A stretch of 64,000 nt of DNA from Dehalococcoidia bacterium. GTDB taxonomy: Bacteria > Chloroflexota > Dehalococcoidia > UBA2979. The notes under the pieces were generated by a model. The model saw only the letters and a program-made list of their open reading frames with translations, made no database searches and was not told where the DNA came from. The stretch covers positions 92,494 through 156,493 of the forward strand of contig JAWLHV010000005.1 of the NCBI GenBank assembly GCA_041690175.1. Direction: 5' to 3'. Numbering within the stretch: position 1 is the first letter of the stretch; the number at the start of each line of letters is the position of its first letter. The position numbers and the translations under genes are program-made. This document shows, piece after piece, positions 33,430 to 57,797 of the stretch.

Positions 33430-33506
33430 TGGTCGGGGTGCCCAGATTTGAACTGGGGACCTCTTCGTCCCGAACGAAGCGCTCTGCCAAGCTGAGCTAC
33501 ACCCCG
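33430..33506 (-). tRNA. tRNA-Pro (anticodon CGG)
   Basis: Reverse complement reads CGGGGTGTAGCTCAGCTTGGCAGAGCGCTTCGTTCGGGACGAAGAGGTCCCCAGTTCAAATCTGGGCACCCCGACCA. It folds as a cloverleaf with acceptor CGGGGTG/CACCCCG, anticodon loop UUCGGGA, T-arm GGTCC..GTTCAAATC, and an encoded CCA. Confidence 0.9.
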
Positions 33507-45214: not shown

Positions 45215-45403
45215 CTGGGCCTCCCTGGATTCGCGCTGATCGTAGAGGCGAGCGCGGGCGGATGACTCCTCTCGCGCCGCTCCAGACTGGCAAGGGATAC
45301 TGCCGAAGTGGTAGGTTGGCCCTCTCGGGCCCTCCGAACGCCCGTTCGCGCATTTGTATGCGCGTCTGAACAGTTCTCGCGGCAGCCTGGCGGTCACTCT
45401 CCC

Positions 45404-48400
45404 GTGTTCACCCACCTCCACACGCACACCGAGTACTCCCTCCTGGACGGCATGTCCAAGATCGAGCCGCTGGTGAAGCGGGCGAAGGAACTTGGCCAGG
45501 AAGCGCTGGCGATCACGGACCACGGCGCCCTGTACGGCGCCATCGAGTTCTACTCCACCGCGAAGAAGTACGGCGTGAAGCCGATCATCGGCATCGAGGC
45601 GTACGTCGCCCCGGGCTCGCGCTTCGACAAGGACGCCAAGAACCGCTGGCCGCACCACCTCACCCTGCTGGCGGAGAACGAGACCGGCTACCGCAACCTG
45701 CTGAAGTTGTCCTCCGCCGCCCACCTCGAGGGCTTCTACTACCGCCCGCGCATGGACAAGGAACTGCTGGCCGCGCACAGCGAGGGCCTGATCGCCCTCT
45801 CAGGCTGCCCGTCCGGCGAGTTCATGTCCGCCCTGCGCGAGGACGACGAGCACAAGGCCATGGAGGTCGCCGGCTGGTTCAGCGACGTCTTCAAGGACCG
45901 CTACTACCTGGAGACCATGGAGCACGGCATCGCGGAGTTCACGCCGCTGATGCCGCGGGTGTTCGACCTGGCCAAGCGGCTGAACCTCCCCACCGTGGTC
46001 ACCAACGACTCCCACTACACGAACCCGGACGACCACAAGGCGCACGAGGTCCTGTTGTGCATCGGCTCCAACAGCACGATCCACGACGAGGGGCGCTTCA
46101 AACTCGACGGGCACACCTTCTACCTCCGCAGCGAGGAGGAGATGCGCTCGCTCTTCCCGGATCACCCGGAGGCGGCGGACAACACCTGGGAGATCGCGGA
46201 GCGGGTAGACATTGACCTGCAGTTCGGCCGCACCCAGTTGCCGAACCCGGGCATCCCGGACGGCAAGACCGCGCGCGACTACCTCCGTGAACTCTGCGAG
46301 GAGGGCCTCTACCGCCGCTACTCAGACGTCACGGACGCGCACCGCGAGCGGCTACGCTTCGAACTGGACGTGGTGGCCCAGACGGGCTTCGACGAATACA
46401 TGCTCATCGTGCGGGACATCGCCCAGTACGCGAAGTCCAACGGCATCCGTATGGGCGTGCGTGGCTCGGCGGCCGCCTCGATCATCCTCTACACGCTGGA
46501 CGTCACGGACATTGATCCGCTGGCGTGGGGGCTGGTCTTCGAGCGGTTCCTGAACCCCGAGCGCCTGAGCATGCCGGACGTGGACTTCGACTTCGCGGAC
46601 GATCGGCGCGAGCAAATCATCCGCTACACCGTGGAGAAGTACGGCCGCGATCGCGTGGCGCAGATCTGCACCTTCGGCACGCTGGGCGCGAAGGCAGCGA
46701 TTCGAGACACCGGCCGCGCGCTGGGCATGGACTTCGGCGCCGCGGACCGCATCGCGCGGATGGTGCCGGACGCGCTGCACATCTCGCTGGCGGACGCACT
46801 GAAGCAGTCGCAGGACCTGCAACAGGCGTACGAGGCCGAGGCGCAGGTTCGCGAGCTGGTGGACACCGCCCAGGCACTGGAGGGCGTAGCGCGCCACTCC
46901 TCCACGCACGCCGCCGGCGTGGTCATCTCCAGTGAGCCGCTGACCAACGTGGTCCCGCTGCAGCGCGCCACCAGCAAGGACGCGGACTCCGAGGCCTCCG
47001 TCCCCACCACGCAGTACCCCATGGCCGACATCGACAAGATCGGCCTGCTGAAGATCGACTACCTGGGGCTCACCAACCTCAGCATCCTGGAGAAGGCGCT
47101 GAACCTCATCGAGGCGCGGCGCGGGGAGCGGGTGGACCTGCTCACCCTTCCGGACGGGGATCCCGCCACTGCGGAGGTGCTGAGCAACGGCGACACCTTC
47201 GGCGTGTTCCAGATGGAGTCGGCGGGCATGCGCCGCTACGTCATGGAACTGAAGCCCCAGAACGTCGCGGAACTCTCTGCCATGGTCGCCCTCTACCGCC
47301 CCGGGCCCATGGAGCAGCTCCCCACCTATATCGACGTGAAGCACGGCCGCGCCCAGCCGTACTACGCGCACCCGGACCTGAAGGAGATCCTGGAGGAGAC
47401 GTACGGCGTCATCACCTACCAGGAGCAGGTGCTGCACATCGCGCGGACGTTCGCCGGCTACTCCCTGGGCCAGGCGGACGTCATGCGCAAGGCCATGGGC
47501 AAGAAGATCGCTTCCGTCATGGTGGAGGAGCGCGAGCGCTTCCTCGCCGGCCTGCGCGAGCAGGGCTACGAGGAGAAACTCGGCAACGACCTCTTCGACC
47601 TGATCGAGCCGTTCGCCGGGTACGCCTTCAACAAGGCGCACGCCGTCTGCTACGGCGCCATCGCCTACCAGACCGCCTACCTGAAGGCGCACTACCCGGC
47701 CGAGTACATGACTGCCGTGCTGCAGGCCGCCAACGGCAACTCTGACCGCATCGCCGCCGCCATCGCGGAGTGCAACCGCCTCGGGATCCCCGTGCTGCAG
47801 CCGGACGTGAACCGCAGCGACGTCAACTTCGCCATCGAGGTGCTGGACGACGGCGCCGAGGCGATCCGCTTCGGCCTCGCGCAGATCAAGAACGTGGGCA
47901 TGGGCGGCGTGGAGGGCTTGATCGCGGAGCGCGAGGCCAAGGGCGAGTTCGAGTCCGTGGAGGACTTCGCGCGCCGCATCAACCCCCGCGACGTGAACAA
48001 GCGTGTCCTGGAGGCGCTGGCCAAGGCCGGCGCCATGGACAGCATGGCGGACCGCGGCGCCGTCATCACCGGCGTGGACCGCCTGCTCTCGCTCGCCCAG
48101 CAGGAGGCGCGCCTGCGCGACACCGGCCAGACGAGCATGTTCGATATGTTCGGCGACGAGGTGAACACGCCCCTGCCGGCGCTGGAACTGGAGTCCGTGC
48201 GGATCCCGCAGCCGCAGTTGCTGGCCTGGGAGAAGGAACTGCTGGGGACGTACATCTCGGAGCACCCCTTCGCCGCCGCGGCCCGGACGCTATCTCGCTA
48301 CACCACCCACCAGGCCGGTGAGATTGGCCCGGACGTTGCGGGCCAGGACGCCATCGTGGCGGGGCTCATCACCGGCATCCGCGCGCTGTCCACCAAGCAG

Positions 48401-49162
48401 GGCAAGCCCTTCGCCGCCGTCACCATCGAGGACCTGAGCGGCCAGGCGGAGGTCACGGTCTGGTCGGAGGCGTACGAGCGCTTCAAGCAGGCCGGCCTGC
48501 TCTTCGAGGGCAACATCCTGCTGCTGAAGGTCAACGTCCGCGCCCGGGGCGACCGCGTCTCCGCTGGCGTCTTCGAGGCGTGCGCGTACGACCAGGACGC
48601 CGGGCGCCTGGCGGCGGACTTCCAGCCGGGCAAGTTCCAGGTGCGGCCCTCCGGCGGCGGCTACGGCGGCGGGTTCACCCCGCGTCCGGCCGCGGTCCGC
48701 GAGCCACAGCCACCGCCCTACAACCCCGGCCCTCCGCCTGGCCCAGGAGGCCCCAACGGCACCGCCCGTACCCAGGCGGAGGGCACCTCAGACGCCCCTG
48801 CGCGCCGCCACCTGAAGGTGGTTGAGCCCGCCGGTGACGACGCCGCGCCGAGCGACCGCACGGTGGAGGCGGACACCGGCCCGCGCCGCCTGGTGGTGCG
48901 CATGGAGGAGACCACGGACGAGGCTGCGGACCGCCGCCGTATCCGTCGCATCTTCGAGACGCTGGACGAGGTCCCCGGTGACCTGTCGGTCGAGGTAATC
49001 ATCGAGCAGCGCGGCGGCGCCGTTGCGCGCCTGCAGCGGGGCGGCGTGGACGCGGCGGCCCTCGAGCGCCTCATCCCGCGCCTCAAGGCGCTGCTCGGCG
49101 TGCTCGGCGAGGCGCGCGAGGTGGGCGCGGCGGTCGCTGACCTCGCGGCCGTAGGCGGCTGA
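45404..49162 (+). CDS. dnaE: DNA polymerase III alpha subunit with C-terminal extension
   Basis: GTG start at 45404 gives VFTHLHTHTEYSLLDG (PHP domain). Polymerase core motifs are present throughout. A ~150-aa Pro/Gly-rich then acidic/helical C-terminal tail extends beyond the usual OB/tau-binding end. Confidence 0.9.
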   Translation: MFTHLHTHTEYSLLDGMSKIEPLVKRAKELGQEALAITDHGALYGAIEFYSTAKKYGVKPIIGIEAYVAPGSRFDKDAKNRWPHHLTLLAENETGYRNLLKLSSAAHLEGFYYRPRMDKELLAAHSEGLIALSGCPSGEFMSALREDDEHKAMEVAGWFSDVFKDRYYLETMEHGIAEFTPLMPRVFDLAKRLNLPTVVTNDSHYTNPDDHKAHEVLLCIGSNSTIHDEGRFKLDGHTFYLRSEEEMRSLFPDHPEAADNTWEIAERVDIDLQFGRTQLPNPGIPDGKTARDYLRELCEEGLYRRYSDVTDAHRERLRFELDVVAQTGFDEYMLIVRDIAQYAKSNGIRMGVRGSAAASIILYTLDVTDIDPLAWGLVFERFLNPERLSMPDVDFDFADDRREQIIRYTVEKYGRDRVAQICTFGTLGAKAAIRDTGRALGMDFGAADRIARMVPDALHISLADALKQSQDLQQAYEAEAQVRELVDTAQALEGVARHSSTHAAGVVISSEPLTNVVPLQRATSKDADSEASVPTTQYPMADIDKIGLLKIDYLGLTNLSILEKALNLIEARRGERVDLLTLPDGDPATAEVLSNGDTFGVFQMESAGMRRYVMELKPQNVAELSAMVALYRPGPMEQLPTYIDVKHGRAQPYYAHPDLKEILEETYGVITYQEQVLHIARTFAGYSLGQADVMRKAMGKKIASVMVEERERFLAGLREQGYEEKLGNDLFDLIEPFAGYAFNKAHAVCYGAIAYQTAYLKAHYPAEYMTAVLQAANGNSDRIAAAIAECNRLGIPVLQPDVNRSDVNFAIEVLDDGAEAIRFGLAQIKNVGMGGVEGLIAEREAKGEFESVEDFARRINPRDVNKRVLEALAKAGAMDSMADRGAVITGVDRLLSLAQQEARLRDTGQTSMFDMFGDEVNTPLPALELESVRIPQPQLLAWEKELLGTYISEHPFAAAARTLSRYTTHQAGEIGPDVAGQDAIVAGLITGIRALSTKQGKPFAAVTIEDLSGQAEVTVWSEAYERFKQAGLLFEGNILLLKVNVRARGDRVSAGVFEACAYDQDAGRLAADFQPGKFQVRPSGGGYGGGFTPRPAAVREPQPPPYNPGPPPGPGGPNGTARTQAEGTSDAPARRHLKVVEPAGDDAAPSDRTVEADTGPRRLVVRMEETTDEAADRRRIRRIFETLDEVPGDLSVEVIIEQRGGAVARLQRGGVDAAALERLIPRLKALLGVLGEAREVGAAVADLAAVGG

Positions 49163-49469
49163 GCGGCGCGACTAGACTCCGCGGATGCGGGTCCTGCATC
49201 CTGCGCGAACTCGGCTGTCAGCCACCCGTGGAACCCCGACATAGGCTTTCGCCGTACCGCCGGGCGGAGCGCATCGTCAGCCTCTCGTGAGCGCGCACTC
49301 GACCGGGTGAGACCGACGGCCAGAATTCAACAACTTCTGGCAGCAATTAGAGGCGAACGTATGACGTACGTCCTAAGCAAACAGTGACTTCACACCCCGA
49401 ACGCCCCACCGGATCCCTCGTAGCCTCTAAGTGTCGCCTCCTACCTGGCGACCAAGTCAGGGGATCAAG

Positions 49470-49877
49470 ATGGGTTTCCAATCGGTTGGATATCGCACAA
49501 GCCGTGGCCGTATGTGGGCCGTCGCGCTTGGGGTCGGCCTCGTGGGTGCGCTGGTGATCGGTGTGATCGCCGCGTCTACTGCCGGGAATACGGTGGAGGA
49601 GACGCGCGCCGGGGTCGGGCAGGGTTCCGTTACCGGCTACGACATCACCAGCGTCCACTACTCGCTGAACAGCCTGGACGCGACCAAGGTGGACGCCGTC
49701 TCCTTCGTCCTGGATGCAGGGCCACCGGCCGGGACCACCGTCCGCATCAAGCTCTTTGAGGCGTCGCCCAACTGGTACGACTGCACGATTTCCGGCGTCT
49801 CCGCCCTGTGCACCACTACATCGCCGCAGGCGACCGTAGTGGAGATCACCGAACTGGTCGTGGTCGCCGCGCAGTAG
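49470..49877 (+). CDS. small exported protein with SipW-cognate-like N-terminal signal region
   Basis: ATG at 49470 is preceded by AGGGGAT. A basic N-region and hydrophobic helix (WAVALGVGLVGALVIGVIAA) are followed by STAGNTVEETRAGV, a motif shared with the protein at 51565. The ~100-aa mature domain has two Cys. Confidence 0.6.
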   Translation: MGFQSVGYRTSRGRMWAVALGVGLVGALVIGVIAASTAGNTVEETRAGVGQGSVTGYDITSVHYSLNSLDATKVDAVSFVLDAGPPAGTTVRIKLFEASPNWYDCTISGVSALCTTTSPQATVVEITELVVVAAQ

Positions 49878-49910
49878 CGACTGCGAGAGCGACCGTCTCG
49901 AGGCACCGTC

Positions 49911-51587
49911 ATGGCATCCGCCATACGCCTGGGCATCGTCGGCCTGGTGCTGGTTGCGCTGTGGTCGTGGGTGGGGCCGTCCCAGTTGGGCGGTCCGCTC
50001 ACCTTCGCGGTGACGTCCGGCATCAGCATGGAACCGGACCTGAGCGCCGGTGACCTTGTCCTCGTGCGGCGCACCGCGAACATCGAGCGCGGCCAGGTGA
50101 TCCTCTACCGCGGCGACCACGCCGGGCACGACGTACTGCACCGCGTCATTGCCATCACGGACGGTGCGTACACCACCAAGGGCGACAACAACGCCTGGGT
50201 AGATCAGGACCGCCCCACTGCCGCCCAGGTCCGGGGCGTCTACTGGGGCCACATACCGGGCGCGGGCAAATGGCTCAGCGTCCTTCAGTCGCCGGTCGGC
50301 GGAGCCGCCATCGGTGGACTGCTACTGGGAGTCCTCGCCATGTCCATGACCCCATCCGCCTCCACACCCGCAGCGGCGCCGTCGTCCGGGCCGCGAGCCC
50401 GCTACCGGGGGCCCCAAGGCCGGACCCCCAGCCTCCGCACCCGCGCCGCGGCCTTCGCTGAGTCGGCGATGGCAGACGCGGCGATGGGCACGGCCCTGGC
50501 GCTCATCGCAGTGGGCGTGCTGCTGGCCGCCTGGATGCTGATGCAGCCAGCCCGGACGACCATCACCGTGGCCACCTCGTACGCGCACTCCGCCGACTGG
50601 GAGTACCAGGGGCGCACCGGGTGGGAGGGCGTCCTTCCGGACTACGGCTCCGCGCCGAATCCGCTGACGCAACAGCCCACCACCGGTCAGCCGATCTTTC
50701 CGAGCGTCACACCGCTCCTTGATGCCACGATGAACTATCGGATGACTGGAGCGCTGCAGGACGTCTCCGGCCAGGCCCGCCTCTTCGTGATCCTCCGGGA
50801 GGACGTGACCGGCTGGTCGCAGGAGTTCGAACTGGAACCCTGGACGTCTTTCACGGGGAACACGGTCAGCCTGACTTCAGAGGTGGACCTGCGCGAGGCG
50901 ATCCAGGCGCTCTCCCAGTTCGAACAGTCCGCCCAGATCAATGGTGCCCTCTACCGCGCGGTCCTCGCCGCGGAGGTGCGGGTGGCCGGGACTGACGACC
51001 GAGGCGCGCAGGTGACGGACGAGTACCGACCGTTCCTGGTCTTTCGCACCGAACTTCCTCGGCTGGTGCGCGTGGACCATGGTGGCACCGTCTCCCCGGA
51101 GGCCATGGCCGCGGGCATCGACCCGCTGGGGGACCTGGTCCGTGACGTGACCCCTCGTGAACTCGTGAGCCACGCGGAGGTCGACCGGAAGGTCTCCGTG
51201 CTGGCCTGGGATGTGCCGGTGTGGGGGCTCCGCGTGGTTGCCGTAGCGCTGGCCGTGGTCGGGCTCGCCGGGGCGTTCACGCTCCACCGCCTGCGGCGCT
51301 GGGCGGACGAGCGCGGCGAGTGGTTCCGCATCCGCGCGCGGTTTGGCAGCCACCTGGCCTTCAGCCCGCAGCCCCCACGCGACCCGGCGGGGCGGGAGTA
51401 CCTGGACCTCCGCTCGTTCGAGGACATCCTGGCGATGGCGGCGACGCATATGCAGCCGATCCTGTGCGTGGAAGAGTCGCAGCGCGTGACCTTCTTCGTA
51501 CTGGACCTGCCGAACGCCATCTATCGCTTCCAACTGCCCATCCCCGCACACGGACCGGGACACCATGTTGCGACTCAGACGGCCTAA
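49911..51587 (+). CDS. SipW/ER-type (S26B) signal peptidase I fused to ~400-aa multi-TM C-terminal extension
   Basis: The N-terminal TM is followed by VTSGISMEPDL (Ser box), DVLHRVIAI (His box) and TKGDNNAWVD (box E). Further hydrophobic helices follow (AIGGLLLGVLAMSM, GTALALIAVGVLLAAWMLM, VWGLRVVAVALAVVGLAGAF) with a large extracytoplasmic region between them. Confidence 0.75.
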   Translation: MASAIRLGIVGLVLVALWSWVGPSQLGGPLTFAVTSGISMEPDLSAGDLVLVRRTANIERGQVILYRGDHAGHDVLHRVIAITDGAYTTKGDNNAWVDQDRPTAAQVRGVYWGHIPGAGKWLSVLQSPVGGAAIGGLLLGVLAMSMTPSASTPAAAPSSGPRARYRGPQGRTPSLRTRAAAFAESAMADAAMGTALALIAVGVLLAAWMLMQPARTTITVATSYAHSADWEYQGRTGWEGVLPDYGSAPNPLTQQPTTGQPIFPSVTPLLDATMNYRMTGALQDVSGQARLFVILREDVTGWSQEFELEPWTSFTGNTVSLTSEVDLREAIQALSQFEQSAQINGALYRAVLAAEVRVAGTDDRGAQVTDEYRPFLVFRTELPRLVRVDHGGTVSPEAMAAGIDPLGDLVRDVTPRELVSHAEVDRKVSVLAWDVPVWGLRVVAVALAVVGLAGAFTLHRLRRWADERGEWFRIRARFGSHLAFSPQPPRDPAGREYLDLRSFEDILAMAATHMQPILCVEESQRVTFFVLDLPNAIYRFQLPIPAHGPGHHVATQTA

Positions 51588-51972
51588 CCCCTGGGTGTTG
51601 GCGGTTGCCGTGGTGCTGGCCGCGCTGGCCATGGGGCTGATCCATGGCTCCACGGCGGCCAACTCTGTCCCGCCGTCGCGGGCGGGGATCTCGGTCGTGC
51701 AGACGGCGCCGTACCAGTTTGCGCCCCACGCCTGCGGCGGGCTCAACCTGTCGGGCATCATCTACGCGACGGGCGGCCGTACCCGGGGCACCGCCCAGAA
51801 TGACCTCATCATCGGCACCAGCGGCAACGACCGTCTCGATGGAGAGGAAGGCGACGACTGCCTGGTGGCCGGCGGCGGGAAGAACGACCGGCTGGACGGC
51901 GGGCCCGGCTACGACGTGTGCGTGGGGAACGCCGACACGCAGTTCACCAACTGCGAGGTCGAAGTGCGCTAG
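51565..51972 (+). CDS. small exported protein with SipW-cognate-like signal and RTX-like Ca-binding repeats
   Basis: Overlaps the peptidase gene by 23 nt. The helix WVLAVAVVLAALAMGLIHG is followed by STAANSVPPSRAGI. Tandem nonapeptide-like repeats follow (GTSGNDRLD, GGGKNDRLD, GGPGYDVCV). Confidence 0.6.
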   Translation: MLRLRRPNPWVLAVAVVLAALAMGLIHGSTAANSVPPSRAGISVVQTAPYQFAPHACGGLNLSGIIYATGGRTRGTAQNDLIIGTSGNDRLDGEEGDDCLVAGGGKNDRLDGGPGYDVCVGNADTQFTNCEVEVR

Positions 51973-52093: not shown

Positions 52094-53098
52094 ATGCCCA
52101 TGGCCCAGCCTGCGGACTTCGGCACGGACGTTCCCTCCGCCGTCCAGCGTCAGCATGCGGAGGTAGATGCGATCCGCCGCGAGGTGGGGCGCGTCATCGT
52201 GGGACAGCAGGCCCTGGTGGACCGGCTGCTGGTGGCGCTGCTGACCAACAACCACGCGCTGGTGGAAGGCGTCCCTGGCCTGGCCAAGACGCTCACCGTG
52301 TCCACGCTCGCCGCGGCGCTGGAATGCACGTTCGCGCGCATCCAGTTCACGCCGGACCTGCTGCCGGCGGACGTGACGGGCACGCTGATCTTCAACCCCC
52401 AGGAGAGTGACTTCCGCGTCCGCCGCGGGCCGATCTTCGCCAACATCGTGCTGGCGGATGAGATCAACCGTGCGCCTGCGAAGGTGCAGTCCGCGCTGCT
52501 GGAGGCCATGCAGGAGCGCCAGGTGTCCATCGGCGGGCAGTCGTTGCCGCTGCCGGATCCGTTCCTGGTGCTGGCCACGCAGAACCCCATTGAGCAGGAG
52601 GGCACCTACCCCCTGCCCGAGGCCCAACTCGACCGCTTCATGATGAAGATCGTGGTGGACTACCCGGAGCGGGACGAGGAGCGTGAGATCCTGGCGCGCG
52701 CCCTGGCCGATGAGACGGACGGCGCCCGCCCCGCGGTCTCCATCATGGAGGTGGCCAACCTCCGCGCGGCGGTCCGCCAGGTGGACGTGAACGACCGCCT
52801 GCGCGAGTACGTGGTGCGCCTGGTGGAGGCGAGCCGCAATCCCGAGCGCTATCGCATGGGGGACCTGGCTCCGCTGATCGAGTACGGCGCGTCACCTCGT
52901 GCGGGCGTCTTCCTCGCCCGCGGCGCGCAGGCATACGCCTTCATCAACGGCCGCGACTACGTGACGCCGGAGGACATCAAGGCCATTGCCCCGGACGTGC
53001 TCCGCCATCGCCTGGTCCTGACCTACGAGGCGGAAGCGCGCGGCGTCTCCGCGGACCAGGTGGTCACGACGCTCCTCGAGGGCGTCGGGATTCCCTAG
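52094..53098 (+). CDS. MoxR-family AAA+ ATPase
   Basis: Walker A EGVPGLAKT, Walker B IVLADEINRA, and the MoxR sensor region [23 protein letters not shown]. Confidence 0.9.
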   Translation: MPMAQPADFGTDVPSAVQRQHAEVDAIRREVGRVIVGQQALVDRLLVALLTNNHALVEGVPGLAKTLTVSTLAAALECTFARIQFTPDLLPADVTGTLIFNPQESDFRVRRGPIFANIVLADEINRAPAKVQSALLEAMQERQVSIGGQSLPLPDPFLVLATQNPIEQEGTYPLPEAQLDRFMMKIVVDYPERDEEREILARALADETDGARPAVSIMEVANLRAAVRQVDVNDRLREYVVRLVEASRNPERYRMGDLAPLIEYGASPRAGVFLARGAQAYAFINGRDYVTPEDIKAIAPDVLRHRLVLTYEAEARGVSADQVVTTLLEGVGIP

Positions 53099-53108
53099 GG
53101 CCACCGCC

Positions 53109-54029
53109 GTGCCCTCCCGTCCCACCAGCGCCCCGCACGAGCCGCTTGCCCTGTCCGCGGGCCTCCTCGGCCGGGTGCGTGGCATCGAGATCCGCACGCG
53201 GCGGTTCGTCTCCTCGCAGGTGTCCGGCAACTACCGCTCGGTCTTCCGCGGTGCCGGGATCGAGTTCGCGGAAGCGCGCGAGTACGTCCCGGGCGACGAC
53301 GTGCGCCGCATCGACTGGAACGTCACCGCGCGCACCGGCACGCCCTGGGTGAAGGAGTACGTGGAGGAGCGCGACCTGACCGTGGTCTGCGCCGTGGACC
53401 GTTCGCCCTCCATGCTCGCAGCGAGGCCGGACGCGGGCCGCCTGCGGGCGTCGGCGGAACTGGTGGCGCTGCTGGGCTTCGCCGCCTCCTACAACAACGA
53501 CCGCACGGGGCTGCTGACGTTCAGCGACGGCGTGGACGCGTTCGTGGAGCCACGTCGAGGTACGCGCCACGTCCTGCGCCAGGTGCGTGACGTGCTGCAT
53601 GCAGACCTCGCACCGCGCCGCAGCACGGCGATGGCCCCGGCGCTGGAGCACCTGGCGCGCATGCTGCGGAAGCGGTCGCTGGTCTTCGTGGTCTCGGACT
53701 TCTTCACCAGCGGCTACGCCCAGGCGCTGCAGACGCTGGCGCGCCGGCATGACGTGGTGGCGCTGGTGCTGGTGGATCCCCTGGACCTGGAACTGCCGGA
53801 CGTGGGCCTGCTGGACGTGGTGGACGCGGAGACCGGCCGCCGCCTGCTGGTGGACACATCGGACGCCGGAGTGCGTCGTCGCTACGCCGAGGCCGCCGCC
53901 GCCCGCGCCACCGCACGGGACGCGCGCATCACCGGCGCGGGCGCGGACCAGGTGGAGATCCGCGTGGACCAGGACGTGGCGGAGCCCATGGCCGCCTTCT
54001 TCCGGCGTCGCGCGCTGGTCGCCCGATGA
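53109..54029 (+). CDS. DUF58 (vWA-like) protein partner of MoxR
   Basis: RRIDWNVTARTGTPWVKEY...VVCAVDRSPSM is the DUF58 signature. Confidence 0.85.
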   Translation: MPSRPTSAPHEPLALSAGLLGRVRGIEIRTRRFVSSQVSGNYRSVFRGAGIEFAEAREYVPGDDVRRIDWNVTARTGTPWVKEYVEERDLTVVCAVDRSPSMLAARPDAGRLRASAELVALLGFAASYNNDRTGLLTFSDGVDAFVEPRRGTRHVLRQVRDVLHADLAPRRSTAMAPALEHLARMLRKRSLVFVVSDFFTSGYAQALQTLARRHDVVALVLVDPLDLELPDVGLLDVVDAETGRRLLVDTSDAGVRRRYAEAAAARATARDARITGAGADQVEIRVDQDVAEPMAAFFRRRALVAR

Positions 54030-55021
54030 TCGCGGACCGGCGGATCGCCAGGGCTCTCAGGCTCGCTTGCGTGCCGATGCTCCTCGCGGTCGCGTTCACC
54101 CTCCCCGTGCCCGCCGGAGCGCAGGAGGCCGACCCCGCGCTGGAGGTCACGGCCTCGTTCTCGCCGCCAGCGGCCACGCTGGGCGACCGGGTCACGCTGG
54201 ACGTGCGCGTGCGGCACACCTCGGAGGTGGTGGTCACGGTCGAGCGCCCCGCCATCGAGGGCGCGGAGGTGCTGGGCGATGCGCAGCCCGTGACGGTGGT
54301 GCAGCCGGACGGCGCGGTGGTGACGTCCTACTCGTTCCGGTACCAGTTGTTCGTGCTCGGCGAGGTGGACGCGGGCCAACTGCGGGTGCGCTGGCTGCGC
54401 GAGGACGGCAGCACCGGCGGCTACGTCACGGCGGGGCCCATCCTGACGGTCGTCTCCGTGCGCGCTCCCGGAGACGTGGAACTGCGGCCATTGAAGCCCC
54501 CGCTCGCGGTGGCCGGCGCGCCTCCCGCGTGGGTGCGTCCCGCCGCCATCGCAGGGGCTGTGGCGCCGGTCGCGGTGGCGCTCGTGGCCGCGGTGGTGCT
54601 GTGGCGGCGGCGTCGGCGGCAACCGGAGGTGGAGGCGGAGCCGCACACGGCGGAGGAGCGCGCGCGAGAGCGGTTGGACGCTCTGCGCCGCCGACGGCTG
54701 GAGGACGACGAGGCGTTCCAGGCGTACTACGGGGCGATCGCGGTGTCCGTGCGGGACTACCTGGGCGACCGCTTCCACTTCAACGCGGCCGCGCTCACCA
54801 CGTCAGAACTCGAGCGGCGGATGACGGCTCACGGTGTGGACCGCTGGCAGGCGCGCCTGGTCGGGGGGCTGCTGGACCGCTGTGACCGCGCCGTCTACGC
54901 GCGCGACTACCCGGACCCCGCGTCCGCAGACCATGACCTGACCGTCGCCTACGAGATCGTGGAGCTGTCGCGACCGCGACAGCCCGAGCGCGCGGAGGCA
55001 GAAGCGGTGGCGGCGCCGTGA
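54026..55021 (+). CDS. signal-anchored membrane protein of Bat-like operon (BatD/DUF4381-like position)
   Basis: Signal peptide, a ~150-aa extracytoplasmic beta-rich domain, one TM (AIAGAVAPVAVALVAAVVLW), and a basic cytoplasmic helical domain. It is translationally coupled on both sides. Confidence 0.5.
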   Translation: MIADRRIARALRLACVPMLLAVAFTLPVPAGAQEADPALEVTASFSPPAATLGDRVTLDVRVRHTSEVVVTVERPAIEGAEVLGDAQPVTVVQPDGAVVTSYSFRYQLFVLGEVDAGQLRVRWLREDGSTGGYVTAGPILTVVSVRAPGDVELRPLKPPLAVAGAPPAWVRPAAIAGAVAPVAVALVAAVVLWRRRRRQPEVEAEPHTAEERARERLDALRRRRLEDDEAFQAYYGAIAVSVRDYLGDRFHFNAAALTTSELERRMTAHGVDRWQARLVGGLLDRCDRAVYARDYPDPASADHDLTVAYEIVELSRPRQPERAEAEAVAAP

Positions 55022-55974
55022 TCCTGGGGGAGGGCGTGACGCTGGCCGCGCCAGCGGCGCTGCTCCTGCTGGTGCCCCTGGCGCTGCTGTTCCTGGTGCG
55101 CGTCCGCTCACCTCGGCCCGCCGCGGCCGTCGCGGACATGGGGCCGCTTGCTGCGGCTGCGCGCACCACGTTGCGGATGCGGCTGCGCCGGCTCCCGGAC
55201 GTGCTGCGTGCGCTGGCCATCGTGGCGCTGGTGGTGTCCCTCGCCCGCCCGCGCGAGGGGCTGGCCGTGACCTCGCTCCCGGAGGAGGGCATCGACATCG
55301 TCGCTGCGGTGGACGTCTCGTCCTCCATGCGCAGCGGCTTTGACGGCCGCGAGTCGCGGCTGGAGGCGGCGCGTCGGGTGCTGGAGGAATTCGCCGGGAC
55401 GCTGGAGGGCGACCGCCTGGGCCTGGTGGCCTTCCAGTCGCGTGCGCTGACGCTCTCCCCGCTCACCAACGACATCCCGGCGATCCAGGCGCGCATCGAC
55501 CAGTTGGCGCCGGGGTTGGTGATGGACGGCACCGCCATTGGCCTCGGCATGGTGGAGGCGCTCACGCTGCTGGAGGACTCGCCCGCGCGCAGCCGCGTGG
55601 TGGTGCTGCTGACGGACGGCGCGAACAACGCCGGGGACGTCACGCCCGCGGACGCCTCGCGCATTGCGCAGGCGCTGGGCGTGCGCGTCTACACCATCGG
55701 CATCGTGCCACGGGTGGGGTTCGCCCTGGACCCCATCGACCGGCGGGCAATGGCGGAACTGGCGGAAGTCACCGGCGGGTCATTCTTCGACGCCGGAACG
55801 CCCGAGGAACTGAGCGCCGCCTACGAGGAGATCGGGACGCTGGAGCGCTCCCGGATCGGCGAGCGCGAGTTCGTCGCCTTCCGGGAGTTCGGCCCGTTGT
55901 TCGCACTGGGGGCGGCAACGCTCTTGCTGCTGGACCTCTCGCTCAGGGCGACGTGGCTGCGGAGGCAGCCGTGA
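55018..55974 (+). CDS. vWA-domain membrane protein (BatA-like)
   Basis: Two N-terminal TMs and a MIDAS motif DVSSSM...LTDGANN. Confidence 0.8.
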   Translation: MILGEGVTLAAPAALLLLVPLALLFLVRVRSPRPAAAVADMGPLAAAARTTLRMRLRRLPDVLRALAIVALVVSLARPREGLAVTSLPEEGIDIVAAVDVSSSMRSGFDGRESRLEAARRVLEEFAGTLEGDRLGLVAFQSRALTLSPLTNDIPAIQARIDQLAPGLVMDGTAIGLGMVEALTLLEDSPARSRVVVLLTDGANNAGDVTPADASRIAQALGVRVYTIGIVPRVGFALDPIDRRAMAELAEVTGGSFFDAGTPEELSAAYEEIGTLERSRIGEREFVAFREFGPLFALGAATLLLLDLSLRATWLRRQP

Positions 55975-57797
55975 TCCCCGGCGTGAGCGGGACGGGAGCG
56001 TGGGGAGAACCGCTGGCGCTGTCAGCGCTGGTGTTGCCGCTGCTGGCGCTGCTCGCGCTCCGCTATGCGCTGGCGCGTCGTCGCCACGTGGCTGCGGCCC
56101 TCGGTGGACCGCCCGGCCTGCGGGGTGGCCGCGAGGGGCGGCGCGTGGTGACGGGCGCGCTGCTGGTGGCGGCGCTGGCGCTGGCGGTGCTCGCGGCCGC
56201 GCGGCCGCAGTGGGGCGCCGGCGACCAGGCCCTGGAGCAGCGCGGCATCGACCTCGTGATCGCCCTCGACGTCTCGCGCTCGATGGAGGCCCAGGACGTG
56301 GCGCCCAGCCGCGCGGAAGCGTCGGCGGCGGGCCTCGCGGAGATGCTCACGCACCTCACCGGCAACCGGGTGGGCCTGGTGGTCTTCGCGGGCTCCGCCT
56401 TCGAACGCGCGCCGCTCACGGTGGACCTGCCGGTGCTGTCCTCCATGGTGGCTCGCGCCCAGGGGGAGGCGCCCCTCGTGCAGCCCGGCACGGACCTGGC
56501 CGCGGCAATCCAGGCGGCGCTCCGCGTGCTGGACGTGGACGAACCGGCGCGCACACAGGCCATCCTGCTGGTCTCGGATGGGGAGGATCTGCGGCCGTCG
56601 CTGGCGGAGGCGCTGGCCGCCGCGGACGAGCGCGGCGTGCGCGTCTACACCGTGTTCGCGGGCACCACCTCGCCCGCGCCGCTGCCCGCCCCGGGAGGCG
56701 GCACCCGCCCGGACGACCTCAGCACCGCTCGCCCGGAGGTGCTGCAGGAGGTCGCCAGCGCCACCGGTGGCGCCTTCCGCAGCGTGGAGCAGGTGGCGGG
56801 CCTGGCGGTGGAGTTCCGCCGGCTCCAGCAGACGCAGTTCGCCTCTGACGTGCGGCCCGCCCTGGTGGATCGCTTCCCGTGGTTCGCCGGCGGCGCGCTC
56901 GCCCTCCTGGCGCTGGCCATGCTGGTGGGCGAGGGCGGTCGGCCGCCTCGTCCGAGGCTGCGGGGCGGCGTCATCACGGCGTCGCTGGTGGCGGTGGTCC
57001 TCGCGGGCTGTGGGACGGCGGCGTGGCGACACGTGGAGGACGGTAACCGCGCCTACGAGGAGCAGCGTTACGAGGACGCGCTGACGTCCTACCGCCAGGC
57101 GGCCGAGGCGGACGCGGACGACCCGGCGGTGGACTTCAACATCGCGAACGCCCTTCACCGGTTGCGCCGGCTGGAGGAGGCGGCCGTGTCCGCGCAAGCC
57201 GCCGTGCAGGGCGCGCTGGACCGCGAGGATCTCCCGCTGGCCGCGCTGGCGCACTACACCAGCGGCAACACCGCGTTCCAGCGGGAAGAGTGGGAGGGCG
57301 CCCGCGACGCCTACATCGCCGCGCTGCGCCTGGACCCCGAGGACCGGGACGCCAAGGCCAACCTGGAACTCGTGCTCGCCATCCTCGCTCCACCGCCGGA
57401 CGAACCCCCGGCAGGCGGCGAGCAGGAGGGCGAGGACGGCGACCCCGCCGATCCGGGCGACCAGGAAGGCGCCGAGGGCGGCGAGGGTGAAGGCGAAGGC
57501 GACGGCCAGCAGGGTCAGCCCGGACAGCAGCCCGGCGAACCGGGCCAGGGCGAGGGCTCCCCGGATGGGACGCCCGGCGATCCACAGCAGGGGCCGGCCC
57601 AGCCGGGCCAGGGACAGGACGGTGAACCGCTCCCCTCCAGCCTCCCGGAGGCGCGCCAGGCGCTGGCCGAGGCACTGGGAGCGCTGGGCCCGGAGGTCAC
57701 GGAGGCGGAGGCGCTGCGGATCCTGGAACTCGCCCGCCGCGCGAACGAACTGGAGCCGCTACCGGACGATCGCGGAGGTGGGCCCACGGCGCGCTAG
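55953..57797 (+). CDS. vWA-TPR fusion protein (BatB/BatC-like) with acidic Gly/Glu/Pro-rich tail
   Basis: MIDAS motif DVSRSM...VSDGED. TPR repeats (YEEQRYEDALTSYRQAAE...; GNTAFQREEWEGARDAYIAAL). The C-terminus is a low-complexity GEGEGDGQQGQPGQQPGEPGQGEG stretch. Confidence 0.8.
   Translation: MAAEAAVIPGVSGTGAWGEPLALSALVLPLLALLALRYALARRRHVAAALGGPPGLRGGREGRRVVTGALLVAALALAVLAAARPQWGAGDQALEQRGIDLVIALDVSRSMEAQDVAPSRAEASAAGLAEMLTHLTGNRVGLVVFAGSAFERAPLTVDLPVLSSMVARAQGEAPLVQPGTDLAAAIQAALRVLDVDEPARTQAILLVSDGEDLRPSLAEALAAADERGVRVYTVFAGTTSPAPLPAPGGGTRPDDLSTARPEVLQEVASATGGAFRSVEQVAGLAVEFRRLQQTQFASDVRPALVDRFPWFAGGALALLALAMLVGEGGRPPRPRLRGGVITASLVAVVLAGCGTAAWRHVEDGNRAYEEQRYEDALTSYRQAAEADADDPAVDFNIANALHRLRRLEEAAVSAQAAVQGALDREDLPLAALAHYTSGNTAFQREEWEGARDAYIAALRLDPEDRDAKANLELVLAILAPPPDEPPAGGEQEGEDGDPADPGDQEGAEGGEGEGEGDGQQGQPGQQPGEPGQGEGSPDGTPGDPQQGPAQPGQGQDGEPLPSSLPEARQALAEALGALGPEVTEAEALRILELARRANELEPLPDDRGGGPTAR

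What the first reader, a model, noticed from the sequence alone, without database searches (positions are those of the whole stretch)
49300..51972. Dedicated SipW-type signal peptidase flanked by two small exported proteins sharing a non-canonical N-terminal motif
Three co-directional, partly overlapping genes form the cassette. The middle gene encodes an ER/archaeal-type signal peptidase I (SGISMEPDL, HR, GDNN boxes). The two flanking small proteins have classical n/h-regions but end in a shared, unusual segment: STAGNTVEETRAGV and STAANSVPPSRAGI. This mirrors the TasA/CalY-SipW pattern, where a private peptidase processes cognate fibre or coat proteins bearing a special signal class. Here both putative substrates and the peptidase sit in one cassette preceded by a distinct AT-richer leader. 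The function is unknown; a processed surface fibre or matrix protein is one possibility.
Basis: partly seen in the sequence, partly recalled or inferred. Interest (0 to 1): 0.7.

Follow-up and report, generated by a model that had tools for sequence, protein, structure and literature searches.

The report
Private signal peptidase with two cognate exported proteins
Three conserved genes encode a dedicated signal-cutting enzyme and the two small exported proteins it most likely trims; by analogy with TasA and archaeal Tafi fibres this may be an undescribed bacterial surface fibre, but fibre formation was not tested.

Summary
Three co-directional genes lie at 49470-51972. ORF1 is a 135-aa exported protein. 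ORF2 is a 558-aa archaeal/ER-type signal peptidase I. ORF3 is a 135-aa exported RTX-repeat protein. Both small proteins carry A/G|STA-x-N-[TS]-V-x3-RAG directly after the hydrophobic region.

That module is TafG in archaeal Tat-fimbriae and the SPase accessory in AbpX loci.

The trio is syntenic in diverse lineages while the flanking genes differ. In metagenome loci, 64 of 71 ORF1-like genes are followed at once by the peptidase, and 38 of 39 long loci also hold DUF5305 and an ORF3-like module. In many loci that module is in frame with the peptidase gene.

The ORF1 family has at least 1670 clusters at 50% identity and no Pfam or NCBIfam model. Its predicted fold is a generic small Ig-like sandwich.

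The motif does not match TIGR04088/89/90, although a TasA control does. It lies just after a canonical A-x-A-like site, so it is mainly a conserved mature N-terminus, plausibly a donor strand.

Best reading: a bacterial counterpart of tapA-sipW-tasA and Tafi, with new subunit families. Polymerisation is inferred, not shown.

The parts
49300..49469 (+). AT-richer leader or promoter region between dnaE and ORF1
   Evidence: GC is 57.1%, the lowest 0.1% of 170-bp windows. There is no Rfam match at E<=5, no sigma-70 consensus site and no element conserved with L001 or L003.
49470..49877 (+). ORF1: 135-aa exported small Ig-like protein, the putative major subunit. An alternative GTG start lies at 49431.
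   Evidence: An AGGGGA ribosome-binding site precedes ATG 49470. The family has at least 1670 clusters at 50% identity with no Pfam or NCBIfam model. AF2 models residues 55-135 as a confident 7-strand beta-sandwich. Two Cys and the C-terminal VVAAQ are conserved.
49470..49574 (+). ORF1 signal peptide, residues 1-35. Predicted cleavage is A35|S36.
   Evidence: The most hydrophobic segment is residues 17-35. Ala is at -1 in 94% of family N-termini, and A/I/V/T is at -3. Cleavage itself is inferred.
49575..49640 (+). ORF1 conserved mature N-terminal segment, STAGNTVEETRAGVGQGSVTGY. Putative donor strand.
   Evidence: N40 is invariant. T/V/P, A-G-x-G-x-G and V-S-G-Y are 80-98% conserved across the family. 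The segment is disordered in the monomer model, with pLDDT below 50.
49911..51587 (+). ORF2: signal peptidase I (archaeal/ER type) fused to a DUF5305-type accessory module, with 4 TM helices
49992..50270 (+). Catalytic S26/S24 domain of ORF2, residues 28-120, predicted extracytoplasmic
   Evidence: Peptidase_S24 scores 24.4 bits, above its gathering score of 23.3. The SGISMEP, LHR and GDNN boxes are present. Beta strands span 30-115 between TM1 and TM2.
50463..51545 (+). DUF5305-like module of ORF2, residues 185-545: TM3, extracytoplasmic beta-sandwich, TM4 and a cytoplasmic alpha/beta domain
   Evidence: The direct Pfam hit is weak, 14.4 bits against a gathering score of 29. Three of 6 full-length homologues hit DUF5305, the best at 4.9e-16. 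Trio peptidases in L086 and L087 score 31.7 and 46.1 bits. The architecture matches the published description.
51565..51972 (+). ORF3: 135-aa exported Cys-rich RTX-repeat protein, the putative minor subunit, nucleator or anchor
   Evidence: HemolysinCabind scores 36.6 bits, above its gathering score of 23. Orthologues keep the motif, the conserved Cys and the GGxGxD repeats. It is always the third gene of the trio, or fused to the second.
51565..51648 (+). ORF3 signal peptide, residues 1-28. Predicted cleavage is G28|S29.
   Evidence: The hydrophobic segment is residues 11-29. S/A/G is at -1 and V/A/S/I at -3 in the family. Cleavage itself is inferred.
51649..51687 (+). ORF3 conserved mature N-terminal segment, STAANSVPPSRAG, shared with ORF1
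   Evidence: The family pattern is [FSV]-T-A-x-N-[ST]-V-P-x-[ST]-x-[AV]-G.

Best explanation
This is a self-contained three-gene export and processing module. It is a bacterial counterpart of tapA-sipW-tasA and of the archaeal Tafi/AbpX loci.

ORF2 is a membrane protein with 4 TM helices. It joins an ER/archaeal-type Ser-His-Asp signal peptidase, with its catalytic domain outside the membrane, to a DUF5305 accessory module. [quoted passage not shown]

ORF1 and ORF3 are Sec substrates. The peptidase cuts them after A35 and G28 respectively. This exposes almost the same mature N-terminus in both, S-T-A-x-N-[TS]-V-...-R-A-G (elsewhere F-T-A-S-N-T-V-P-x-S-x-A-G).

Proposed next step: the N-terminal segment acts as a donor strand. 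ORF1, a roughly 100-residue mature protein (about 80 of them the Ig-like domain) with one disulfide, would polymerise head-to-tail into a surface or matrix fibre. ORF3 has the same donor segment but a Ca-binding RTX/Cys-rich domain in place of the Ig domain. It would join one end of the fibre as a nucleator, cap or anchor, as TapA does for TasA and TafC/TafF do for Tafi.

Shown here: gene structure, family assignment of the peptidase, conservation of the motif, and synteny and fusions.
Inferred: cleavage by ORF2 and its exact site, polymerisation, and the role of ORF3.
For: Peptidase identity:
- TIGR02228 scores above its cut-off, and Ser39/His77/Asp92/Asp98 are invariant.

DUF5305 fusion and topology:
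- Searches support it.
- An EAL domain is fused at the C-terminus in L087, which fits a cytoplasmic C-terminus.

Precedent from characterised systems:
- DUF5305 (TafG) accompanies the dedicated peptidase TafD in Tafi.
- Deleting tafD leaves the TafA subunit unprocessed and abolishes the fibres, and Tafi assembles by strand donation (PMC11821415 and PMC12337348).
- SPase::DUF5305 fusions in Chloroflexota and Actinomycetota have been noted in print.

Synteny:
- The same trio sits among unrelated flanking genes in L001, L002, L003, L086 and L087.
- 64 of 71 loci have the peptidase right after the ORF1-like gene, and 38 of 39 long loci also hold DUF5305 and an ORF3-like module.

Fusions:
- In 29 loci the ORF3-like module is in frame with DUF5305.
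- Two of these have no possible internal start codon.

Motif behaviour:
- The motif is shared by two otherwise unrelated mature domains and changes in parallel by lineage: STAGNTV/STAANSV here, AFTASNTVP/SFTASNTVP elsewhere.
- Conservation extends about 20 residues past the cleavage site, far beyond what a peptidase reads.
- That segment is disordered in the monomer model.

Export:
- Conserved Cys pairs in both proteins fit extracytoplasmic proteins.
Against: - No direct evidence of cleavage or polymerisation exists.
- There is no Pfam hit to Peptidase_M73/TasA or DUF1102.
- The cleavage site looks canonical, so a housekeeping LepB-type enzyme could also process these proteins.
- 7 of 71 ORF1-like genes are orphans with no peptidase beside them.
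- The 80 metagenome loci are mutually close (about 70-80% identical to the query P0020), so the synteny percentages over-count one clade.
- The multimer test could not be run.
Confidence: 0.6

Rival explanations
1. Dedicated processing without fibres. ORF1 and ORF3 are soluble or wall-associated secreted proteins, such as a small adhesin or coat protein and a Ca-binding partner. They need the private peptidase for release. The conserved mature N-terminus serves another purpose, such as recognition by the DUF5305 sandwich, targeting to the wall, or a modification site.
For: - Synteny and the shared motif demonstrate a peptidase-substrate relation only.
- ORF1 is modelled as a complete 7-strand sandwich with no obvious missing strand.
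- It has no fold match to known donor-strand pilins.
Against: - A roughly 20-residue conserved, Gly-alternating, disordered N-terminal extension shared by a major and a minor protein is the hallmark of donor-strand systems.
- Every characterised system that pairs a dedicated SPase I with DUF5305 makes fibres.
Confidence: 0.22
2. The signal sequences are not cleaved. ORF1 and ORF3 are type-II membrane-anchored subunits of a multi-subunit signal peptidase complex. In it, ORF2 is the catalytic-plus-accessory core, loosely like eukaryotic SPC subunits. The shared motif would dock them to ORF2.
For: - The SPase-DUF5305 fusion has been compared in print with the eukaryotic SPC.
- The in-frame fusion of the ORF3-like module to ORF2 homologues could mean a permanent physical association.
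Against: - Ala at -1 is 94% conserved, with a small or aliphatic residue at -3, immediately before the motif. This is a cleavage-site signature.
- A general SPC would not need a fast-evolving Ig domain or an RTX domain.
- The cassette moves as a unit among unrelated neighbourhoods, like an accessory trait.
Confidence: 0.08
3. The two small proteins are ordinary LepB substrates, and the neighbouring peptidase is unrelated to them or acts on other targets.
For: The predicted site obeys the ordinary -3/-1 rule. TIGR04088-type signal models do not match.
Against: - 90% immediate adjacency.
- The trio is conserved in divergent lineages with unrelated flanks.
- There are in-frame fusions of substrate and peptidase.
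- The motif changes in parallel in both proteins.
Confidence: 0.06

Closest known systems
Bacillus subtilis tapA-sipW-tasA operon (TasA biofilm fibres)
   Same: - An ER/archaeal-type signal peptidase gene sits between the genes of its two substrates.
- Both substrates share a conserved segment spanning the cleavage site.
- In TasA the mature N-terminus is the donor strand, and TapA is the minor or nucleating partner (background knowledge).
   Different: - The gene order is reversed: the major subunit comes first here.
- ORF2 fails the SipW equivalog model (48.5 bits against a cut-off of 190) and carries a DUF5305 fusion that SipW lacks.
- ORF1 is roughly 100 residues when mature, about 80 of them an Ig-like domain. 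It is not a ~230-aa TasA jelly roll, and has no PF12389 or TIGR04088 match.
- ORF3 is an RTX-repeat protein, not TapA-like.
Haloarchaeal Tat-fimbriae (Tafi): TafA/C/E/F subunits, TafD peptidase, TafG (DUF5305)
   Same: - A dedicated SPase I works with a DUF5305 protein.
- There are several small subunits, and assembly is by donor-strand exchange.
- Deleting tafD blocks processing and fibre formation.
- The iScience paper already lists bacterial SPase::DUF5305 fusions, for example in Tepidiforma and Actinoplanes.
   Different: - Here the peptidase and DUF5305 are one polypeptide.
- The substrates carry Sec-type signals, not Tat signals.
- There are only two substrate genes, and no TafB regulator.
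AbpX / archaeal bundling pilus loci (TasA superfamily), including bacterial AbpX homologues in Bacillota and Chloroflexota
   Same: - The loci encode an SPase I, a DUF5305 accessory protein (sometimes fused, as in Anaerolinea thermophila E8MZY1), a major subunit and minor or tip subunits.
- Calcium is involved in AbpX assembly.
   Different: - The AbpX-associated SPase has about 10 TM helices, while ORF2 has 4.
- AbpX is an acidic jelly-roll protein of about 160 aa with an aromatic and acidic donor strand.
- ORF1 is smaller and has an N-T-V-P...A-G-x-G-x-G segment.
- Calcium binding here is implied only for ORF3, through its RTX repeats.
SipW-cognate signal classes TIGR04088 / TIGR04089 (RER_14450 family) / TIGR04090 (BsaA/CPF_0494 family)
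   Same: The concept is the same: exported proteins with a class-specific N-terminal region, encoded beside a SipW-like peptidase.
   Different: ORF1, ORF3 and 36 diverse ORF1 relatives give no hit, while the TasA control hits all three models. This is a different, unmodelled class.
Streptococcus pyogenes SipA/LepA-type pilus-assembly signal-peptidase homologue
   Different: SipA lacks the catalytic residues and acts as a chaperone for sortase pili (background knowledge). ORF2 keeps Ser, His and Asp, and no sortase or LPXTG motif is present in the cassette.

Membership tests
Archaeal/ER-type signal peptidase I (TIGR02228; S26B, SipW/SEC11-like) | HMM score above the curated cut-off | tested here: met
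   60.7 bits against a cut-off of 51.85. Peptidase_S24 scores 24.4 against a gathering score of 23.3.
Archaeal/ER-type signal peptidase I (TIGR02228; S26B, SipW/SEC11-like) | Catalytic Ser and His (not Lys), plus conserved Asp in the GDNN box | tested here: met
Bacillus SipW (NF046067 equivalog) | HMM score above the equivalog cut-off | tested here: not met
   48.5 bits against a cut-off of 190. It is SipW-like in type but not an orthologue.
DUF5305 (PF17231; TafG-type SPase accessory module) | Pfam HMM score above the gathering score | tested here: inconclusive
   The window protein scores 14.4 bits against 29. However, 3 of 6 full-length homologues match, the best at 4.9e-16, and the trio peptidases of L086 and L087 score 31.7 and 46.1 bits.
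DUF5305 (PF17231; TafG-type SPase accessory module) | Architecture of an extracytoplasmic beta-sandwich flanked by two TM helices, followed by a cytoplasmic alpha/beta domain | tested here: met
   TM3 is 185-214, the beta-sandwich 215-436, TM4 434-468 and the alpha/beta domain 470-541. This matches the description in bioRxiv 10.64898/2026.01.04.697558.
SipW-cognate signal class (TIGR04088) | Match to the 34-position signal/N-terminus HMM (cut-off 19 bits) | tested here: not met
   No hit at E<=1 for ORF1 or ORF3. No hit at E<=0.1 for 36 family members. The TasA positive control scores 38 bits.
TIGR04089 / TIGR04090 SipW-exported protein families | HMM match | tested here: not met
   No hits. 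The control shows that both models are in the library.
TasA superfamily (TasA/camelysin PF12389, DUF1102/TafA-E, AbpA, AbpX) | Sequence or fold similarity to the jelly-roll subunit | tested here: not met
Donor-strand-complemented fibres (functional class) | The N-terminal strand of one subunit inserts into the sheet of the next | not testable with these tools
Only indirect support exists: a conserved, disordered, Gly-alternating N-terminal extension shared by both substrates.
Dedicated peptidase-substrate cassette (functional class) | Conserved gene adjacency across lineages, independent of flanking genes | tested here: met
   The trio is found in L001, L002, L003, L086 and L087. Counts are 64/71 and 38/39 in metagenome loci. 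In-frame fusions occur in 29 loci.
RTX calcium-binding repeat proteins (PF00353), for ORF3 | Pfam HMM score above the gathering score; GGxGxD nonapeptides | tested here: met
   36.6 bits against 23, in 2 stretches. The repeats are conserved in orthologues. Calcium binding itself was not tested.

The most novel reading that the evidence does not exclude
ORF1 founds a large, unannotated family of minimal pilins: a mature protein of roughly 100 residues with an Ig-like domain of about 80. Such fibres would form a new branch of chaperone-free, donor-strand-assembled surface fibres in monoderm or atypical-envelope bacteria (Chloroflexota, Actinomycetota and others). They would be made by a single-polypeptide signal-peptidase/DUF5305 machine. 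Their nucleator or anchor would be a Ca-binding RTX protein carrying the same donor strand. In some lineages that protein is synthesised as part of the peptidase polypeptide and released by self-processing, or the module is wired to c-di-GMP through an EAL fusion.
Probability: 0.4. Interest if true: 0.75.

Novelty: new variant of a known kind. Interest (0 to 1): 0.6.

Why it matters
TasA-like and Tafi-like matrix fibres are emerging as a cross-domain solution for biofilm scaffolds. So far the known bacterial examples are TasA/camelysin and AbpX-type jelly rolls, mostly in Bacillota.

This cassette shows the same processing machinery, a dedicated ER-type peptidase plus DUF5305, serving two quite different substrates. 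The family has at least 1670 sequence clusters and no database model. It is abundant in soil and peat metagenomes.

If the products polymerise, this would be:
- an unrecognised and possibly common surface fibre of Chloroflexota and Actinomycetota;
- a very small, tractable subunit for studying chaperone-free donor-strand assembly;
- a natural fusion that could clarify what DUF5305 does for the peptidase.

At the least, the result supports three annotation models: the ORF1 family, the ORF3 family and the N-terminal motif.

Tried and rejected
- The afdb50 Foldseek library was not available.
- The genome-contig scan with ORF1 patterns returned only one species genome, a Dehalococcoidia MAG identical to L003. 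Taxonomic breadth therefore rests on gene context, and the source organism of the window was not identified. CrgA and PASTA neighbours in L002 suggest Actinomycetota. FtsA and FtsZ neighbours in L086 argue against Actinomycetota.
- P0001 is not in the contig index, and cluster look-ups gave no names.
- The word-indexed protein search badly underestimated family size, finding 21 hits against 1670 clusters by exhaustive HMM. I therefore dropped my early impression that this is a rare family.
- Regulatory RNA in the leader: no Rfam hit, no sigma-70 or terminator consensus, and no conserved leader block among three loci.
- Link to the downstream MoxR/DUF58/VWA operon: rejected, because that operon is not next to the cassette in any other locus.
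- TasA-superfamily membership of ORF1: rejected on sequence and fold tests.
- An N-glycosylation sequon: N-T-V and N-S-V are not N-x-S/T, so this was rejected by inspection.
Full report
**1. What is in the sequence**

The window is about 71% GC. Between dnaE (45308-49162) and a MoxR/DUF58/VWA operon (52094 onwards) lie three co-directional genes on the + strand.

- ORF1 most likely starts at ATG 49470, seven bases after AGGGGA, and ends at 49877 (135 aa). A GTG at 49431 is the alternative start.
- ORF2 runs 49911-51587 (558 aa).
- ORF3 runs 51565-51972 (135 aa) and overlaps ORF2 by 23 nt.

The 170 bp before ORF1 have 57.1% GC, the lowest 0.1% of such windows here. The region has no Rfam match, no sigma-70 or terminator consensus, and no block conserved with two orthologous loci.

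ORF1 and ORF3 each have an Arg-rich n-region and a hydrophobic stretch of about 20 residues. After these come ...VIAA|STAGNTVEETRAGV in ORF1 and ...LIHG|STAANSVPPSRAGI in ORF3. The core pattern A[AGST]N[ST][VI] occurs only three times in open six-frame translation of the 64 kb, and two of those are these proteins.

**2. The peptidase**

ORF2 passes the curated cut-off of TIGR02228, the archaeal-type signal peptidase I model, with 60.7 bits against 51.85. It fails the Bacillus SipW equivalog with 48.5 bits against 190. Ser39 (SGISMEP), His77 (LHR), and Asp92 and Asp98 (GDNN...D) are invariant in its homologues. This is the Ser-His-Asp arrangement of ER/archaeal-type enzymes.

The protein has four hydrophobic helices, at 1-23, 124-147, 185-214 and 434-461. 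The AF2 model (mean pLDDT 69) gives this layout:

- TM1;
- a beta-rich catalytic domain, residues 30-115;
- TM2;
- a disordered Arg-rich loop;
- TM3;
- a large beta-sandwich, residues 215-436;
- TM4;
- a C-terminal alpha/beta domain, residues 470-541.

The C-terminal two-thirds give only a faint direct DUF5305 hit, 14.4 bits against a gathering score of 29. Three of six full-length homologues hit DUF5305, the best at 4.9e-16. The equivalent proteins of two more distant trios pass the threshold with 31.7 and 46.1 bits. [quoted passage not shown]

**3. The two small proteins and their families**

A word-indexed search found only 21 relatives of ORF1 and 16 of ORF3. An exhaustive profile search found 1670 cluster representatives at 50% identity with E<=1e-3, of which 815 have E<=1e-10. 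The family is large.

Neither ORF1 nor 36 diverse relatives match any Pfam or NCBIfam model consistently. In particular there is no match to TIGR04088/89/90, Peptidase_M73 (TasA/camelysin) or DUF1102. A TasA control, with the sequence recalled from memory, does hit TIGR04088 at 38 bits and also TIGR04089 and TIGR04090. The negative result is therefore meaningful.

The family consensus is: h-region, then A-Y-A | F-T-A-S-N-T-V-P-x-S-x-A-G-x-G-x-G-x-V-S-G-Y, two conserved Cys, and ...L-x-V-V-A-A-Q at the very C-terminus.

ORF3 passes the RTX repeat model with 36.6 bits against 23. Its relatives keep four Cys, the GGxGxD repeats and the N-terminal [ST]-[TA]-A-x-N-[ST]-V-P-x-[ST]-x-[AV]-G.

**4. 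Where the motif sits**

Counting from the invariant Asn, 87 distinct ORF1-type N-termini have Ala at -5 in 94% of cases, Tyr or Ala at -6, and Ala, Ile, Val or Thr at -7. ORF3-type N-termini have Ser, Ala or Gly at -5 and Val, Ala, Ser or Ile at -7. This is an ordinary -3/-1 signal-peptidase site.

The predicted cuts are A35|S36 in ORF1 and G28|S29 in ORF3. It runs about 20 residues into the mature protein in ORF1, and about 13 residues are common to both proteins. That is far more than a peptidase reads, so the segment must do something after cleavage.

The segment also changes in parallel in the two proteins between lineages. It is STAGNTV/STAANSV here and in the Dehalococcoidia-type loci. 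It is YA|FTASNTVP and S|FTASNTVP in the actinobacterial-type loci.

**5. Synteny**

The trio recurs in this order: ORF1-like gene, then peptidase (fused to or followed by DUF5305), then ORF3-like gene. The surrounding genes are unrelated in each case.

| Locus | Neighbouring genes |
|---|---|
| L001 | TIR/SLATT and Na/H exchanger |
| L003 (Dehalococcoidia MAG) | Cytochrome oxidase genes |
| L002 | CrgA and PASTA proteins; peptidase and DUF5305 are separate genes |
| L086 | dcw cluster with FtsA and FtsZ |
| L087 | ETF genes |

A metagenome scan with [YF]A[FY][TA][AS]xNTVP found at least 538 relatives, and 80 loci were fetched. I called ORFs in them and searched with HMMs built from the session alignments.

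- Of 71 loci with at least 600 bp downstream, 64 (90%) have the peptidase immediately after the ORF1-like gene.
- Of 39 loci with at least 3.3 kb downstream, 38 also have DUF5305 and 38 an ORF3-like module.
- Seven ORF1-like genes are orphans.

Caveat: these 80 loci are close to one another, at about 70-80% identity to the query. They count mainly as one clade. The breadth of the result comes from the five individually inspected loci plus the window.

In 29 loci the ORF3-like module is in the same frame as DUF5305 with no stop between them. In two of these, L059 and L078, there is no ATG, GTG or TTG in the 42 codons before the hydrophobic helix. This points to a genuine fusion of substrate and peptidase.

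In L087 the peptidase-DUF5305 protein carries a C-terminal EAL domain at 204 bits. This fits a cytoplasmic C-terminus and hints at c-di-GMP control.

**6. Comparison with known systems**

DUF5305 appears in four papers of the library, and all concern archaeal matrix fibres.

In Haloarcula Tat-fimbriae, the DUF5305 protein TafG accompanies the dedicated signal peptidase TafD. Deleting tafD leaves the major subunit unprocessed and abolishes the fibres. The subunits TafA, TafC, TafE and TafF are modelled, and in Natrinema shown by cryo-EM, to assemble by strand donation.

The same paper lists bacterial peptidase::DUF5305 fusions, including Tepidiforma and Actinoplanes. A 2026 preprint on AbpX notes such a fusion in Anaerolinea. 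It describes loci with an SPase I, DUF5305, a major subunit and minor or tip subunits, and Ca-dependent assembly.

The B. subtilis tapA-sipW-tasA operon has the same logic, with the peptidase gene between its two substrates. The machinery here is therefore of a known kind. The substrates are not. I found no paper describing them.

**7. Mechanism proposed**

Shown:
- a dedicated ER-type peptidase fused to its accessory module;
- two exported, disulfide-containing proteins with a shared N-terminus that changes in parallel between lineages;
- obligate gene linkage, up to fusion.

Inferred:
- ORF2 cuts both proteins at A35|S36 and G28|S29.
- The exposed Gly-alternating segment is a donor strand.
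- ORF1 polymerises into a surface or matrix fibre.
- ORF3 has the donor segment but no Ig domain. It would occupy one fibre end as nucleator, cap or anchor, possibly in a Ca-dependent manner.

I put about 0.8 on the dedicated peptidase-substrate relation and about 0.4-0.5 on polymerisation. The main rival is dedicated processing of non-polymerising secreted proteins.

**8. Verdict**

The finding is real, and its interpretation is essentially right, with three corrections:
- the peptidase carries a DUF5305 fusion;
- the cleavage site is canonical, so the motif is a mature N-terminus;
- the proteins do not belong to the TIGR04088-type classes.

It is a new variant of a known kind of system. It involves a large unannotated protein family and awaits a multimer model and a simple processing and EM experiment.

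Noticed in passing
L087:3647-5983: The trio's peptidase is a triple fusion of S26 peptidase, DUF5305 and an EAL domain (EAL at 204 bits). This suggests c-di-GMP control of the module and supports a cytoplasmic C-terminus.
   Followed up: partly
L014, L020, L038, L040, L050-L052, L059-L061, L066-L068, L077-L079, L085 and others (29 loci): The ORF3-like module, comprising a TM helix, the FTASNTVP motif and a Cys-rich domain, is in frame with the DUF5305 gene with no stop. L059 and L078 have no possible start codon before the helix. A substrate may be made as part of its own peptidase and released by self-processing.
   Followed up: partly
P0090 (163 aa; metagenome representative): An ORF1-like protein reads straight into a SipW-like peptidase sequence (…VTC-IAVTGNSMEPGL…). 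This is either a frameshift or assembly artefact, or another natural fusion. It shows adjacency in yet another lineage.
   Followed up: no
window 52094-57797: A MoxR AAA ATPase, a DUF58 protein, a membrane protein and two VWA/TPR (Bat-like) genes follow the cassette after a 121-bp gap of 74% GC. This operon is not next to the cassette in any other locus examined, so I treat it as unrelated.
   Followed up: partly
window 45308-49162: The DnaE ORF is long, 1284 aa from the first GTG. After the usual end of the polymerase it carries a Pro/Gly-rich stretch (…GGGYGGGFTPRPAAVREPQPPPYNPGPPPGPGGPNG…) followed by an extra C-terminal domain of about 120 aa.
   Followed up: no
L001:1491-5531: Upstream of the orthologous cassette lie a TIR_2 protein, a SLATT_1 protein, an amidase/LysM protein and an eCIS_core protein. 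These are defence or contractile-injection-type genes, which suggests the cassette sits in a variable region there.
   Followed up: no
L003:8724-9656: Directly after the orthologous trio in the Dehalococcoidia MAG lies a 310-aa secreted protein. It is made largely of GNGNGN / GNAAEPAN repeats and has an ordinary AxA signal.
   Followed up: no
P0111 (332 aa; metagenome representative): An ORF1-like domain is followed by an extra C-terminal region of about 200 aa in one polypeptide, a longer variant of the family.
   Followed up: no
window 33430-33506 (-): A tRNA-Pro (CGG) is the only RNA gene detected in the window.
   Followed up: no
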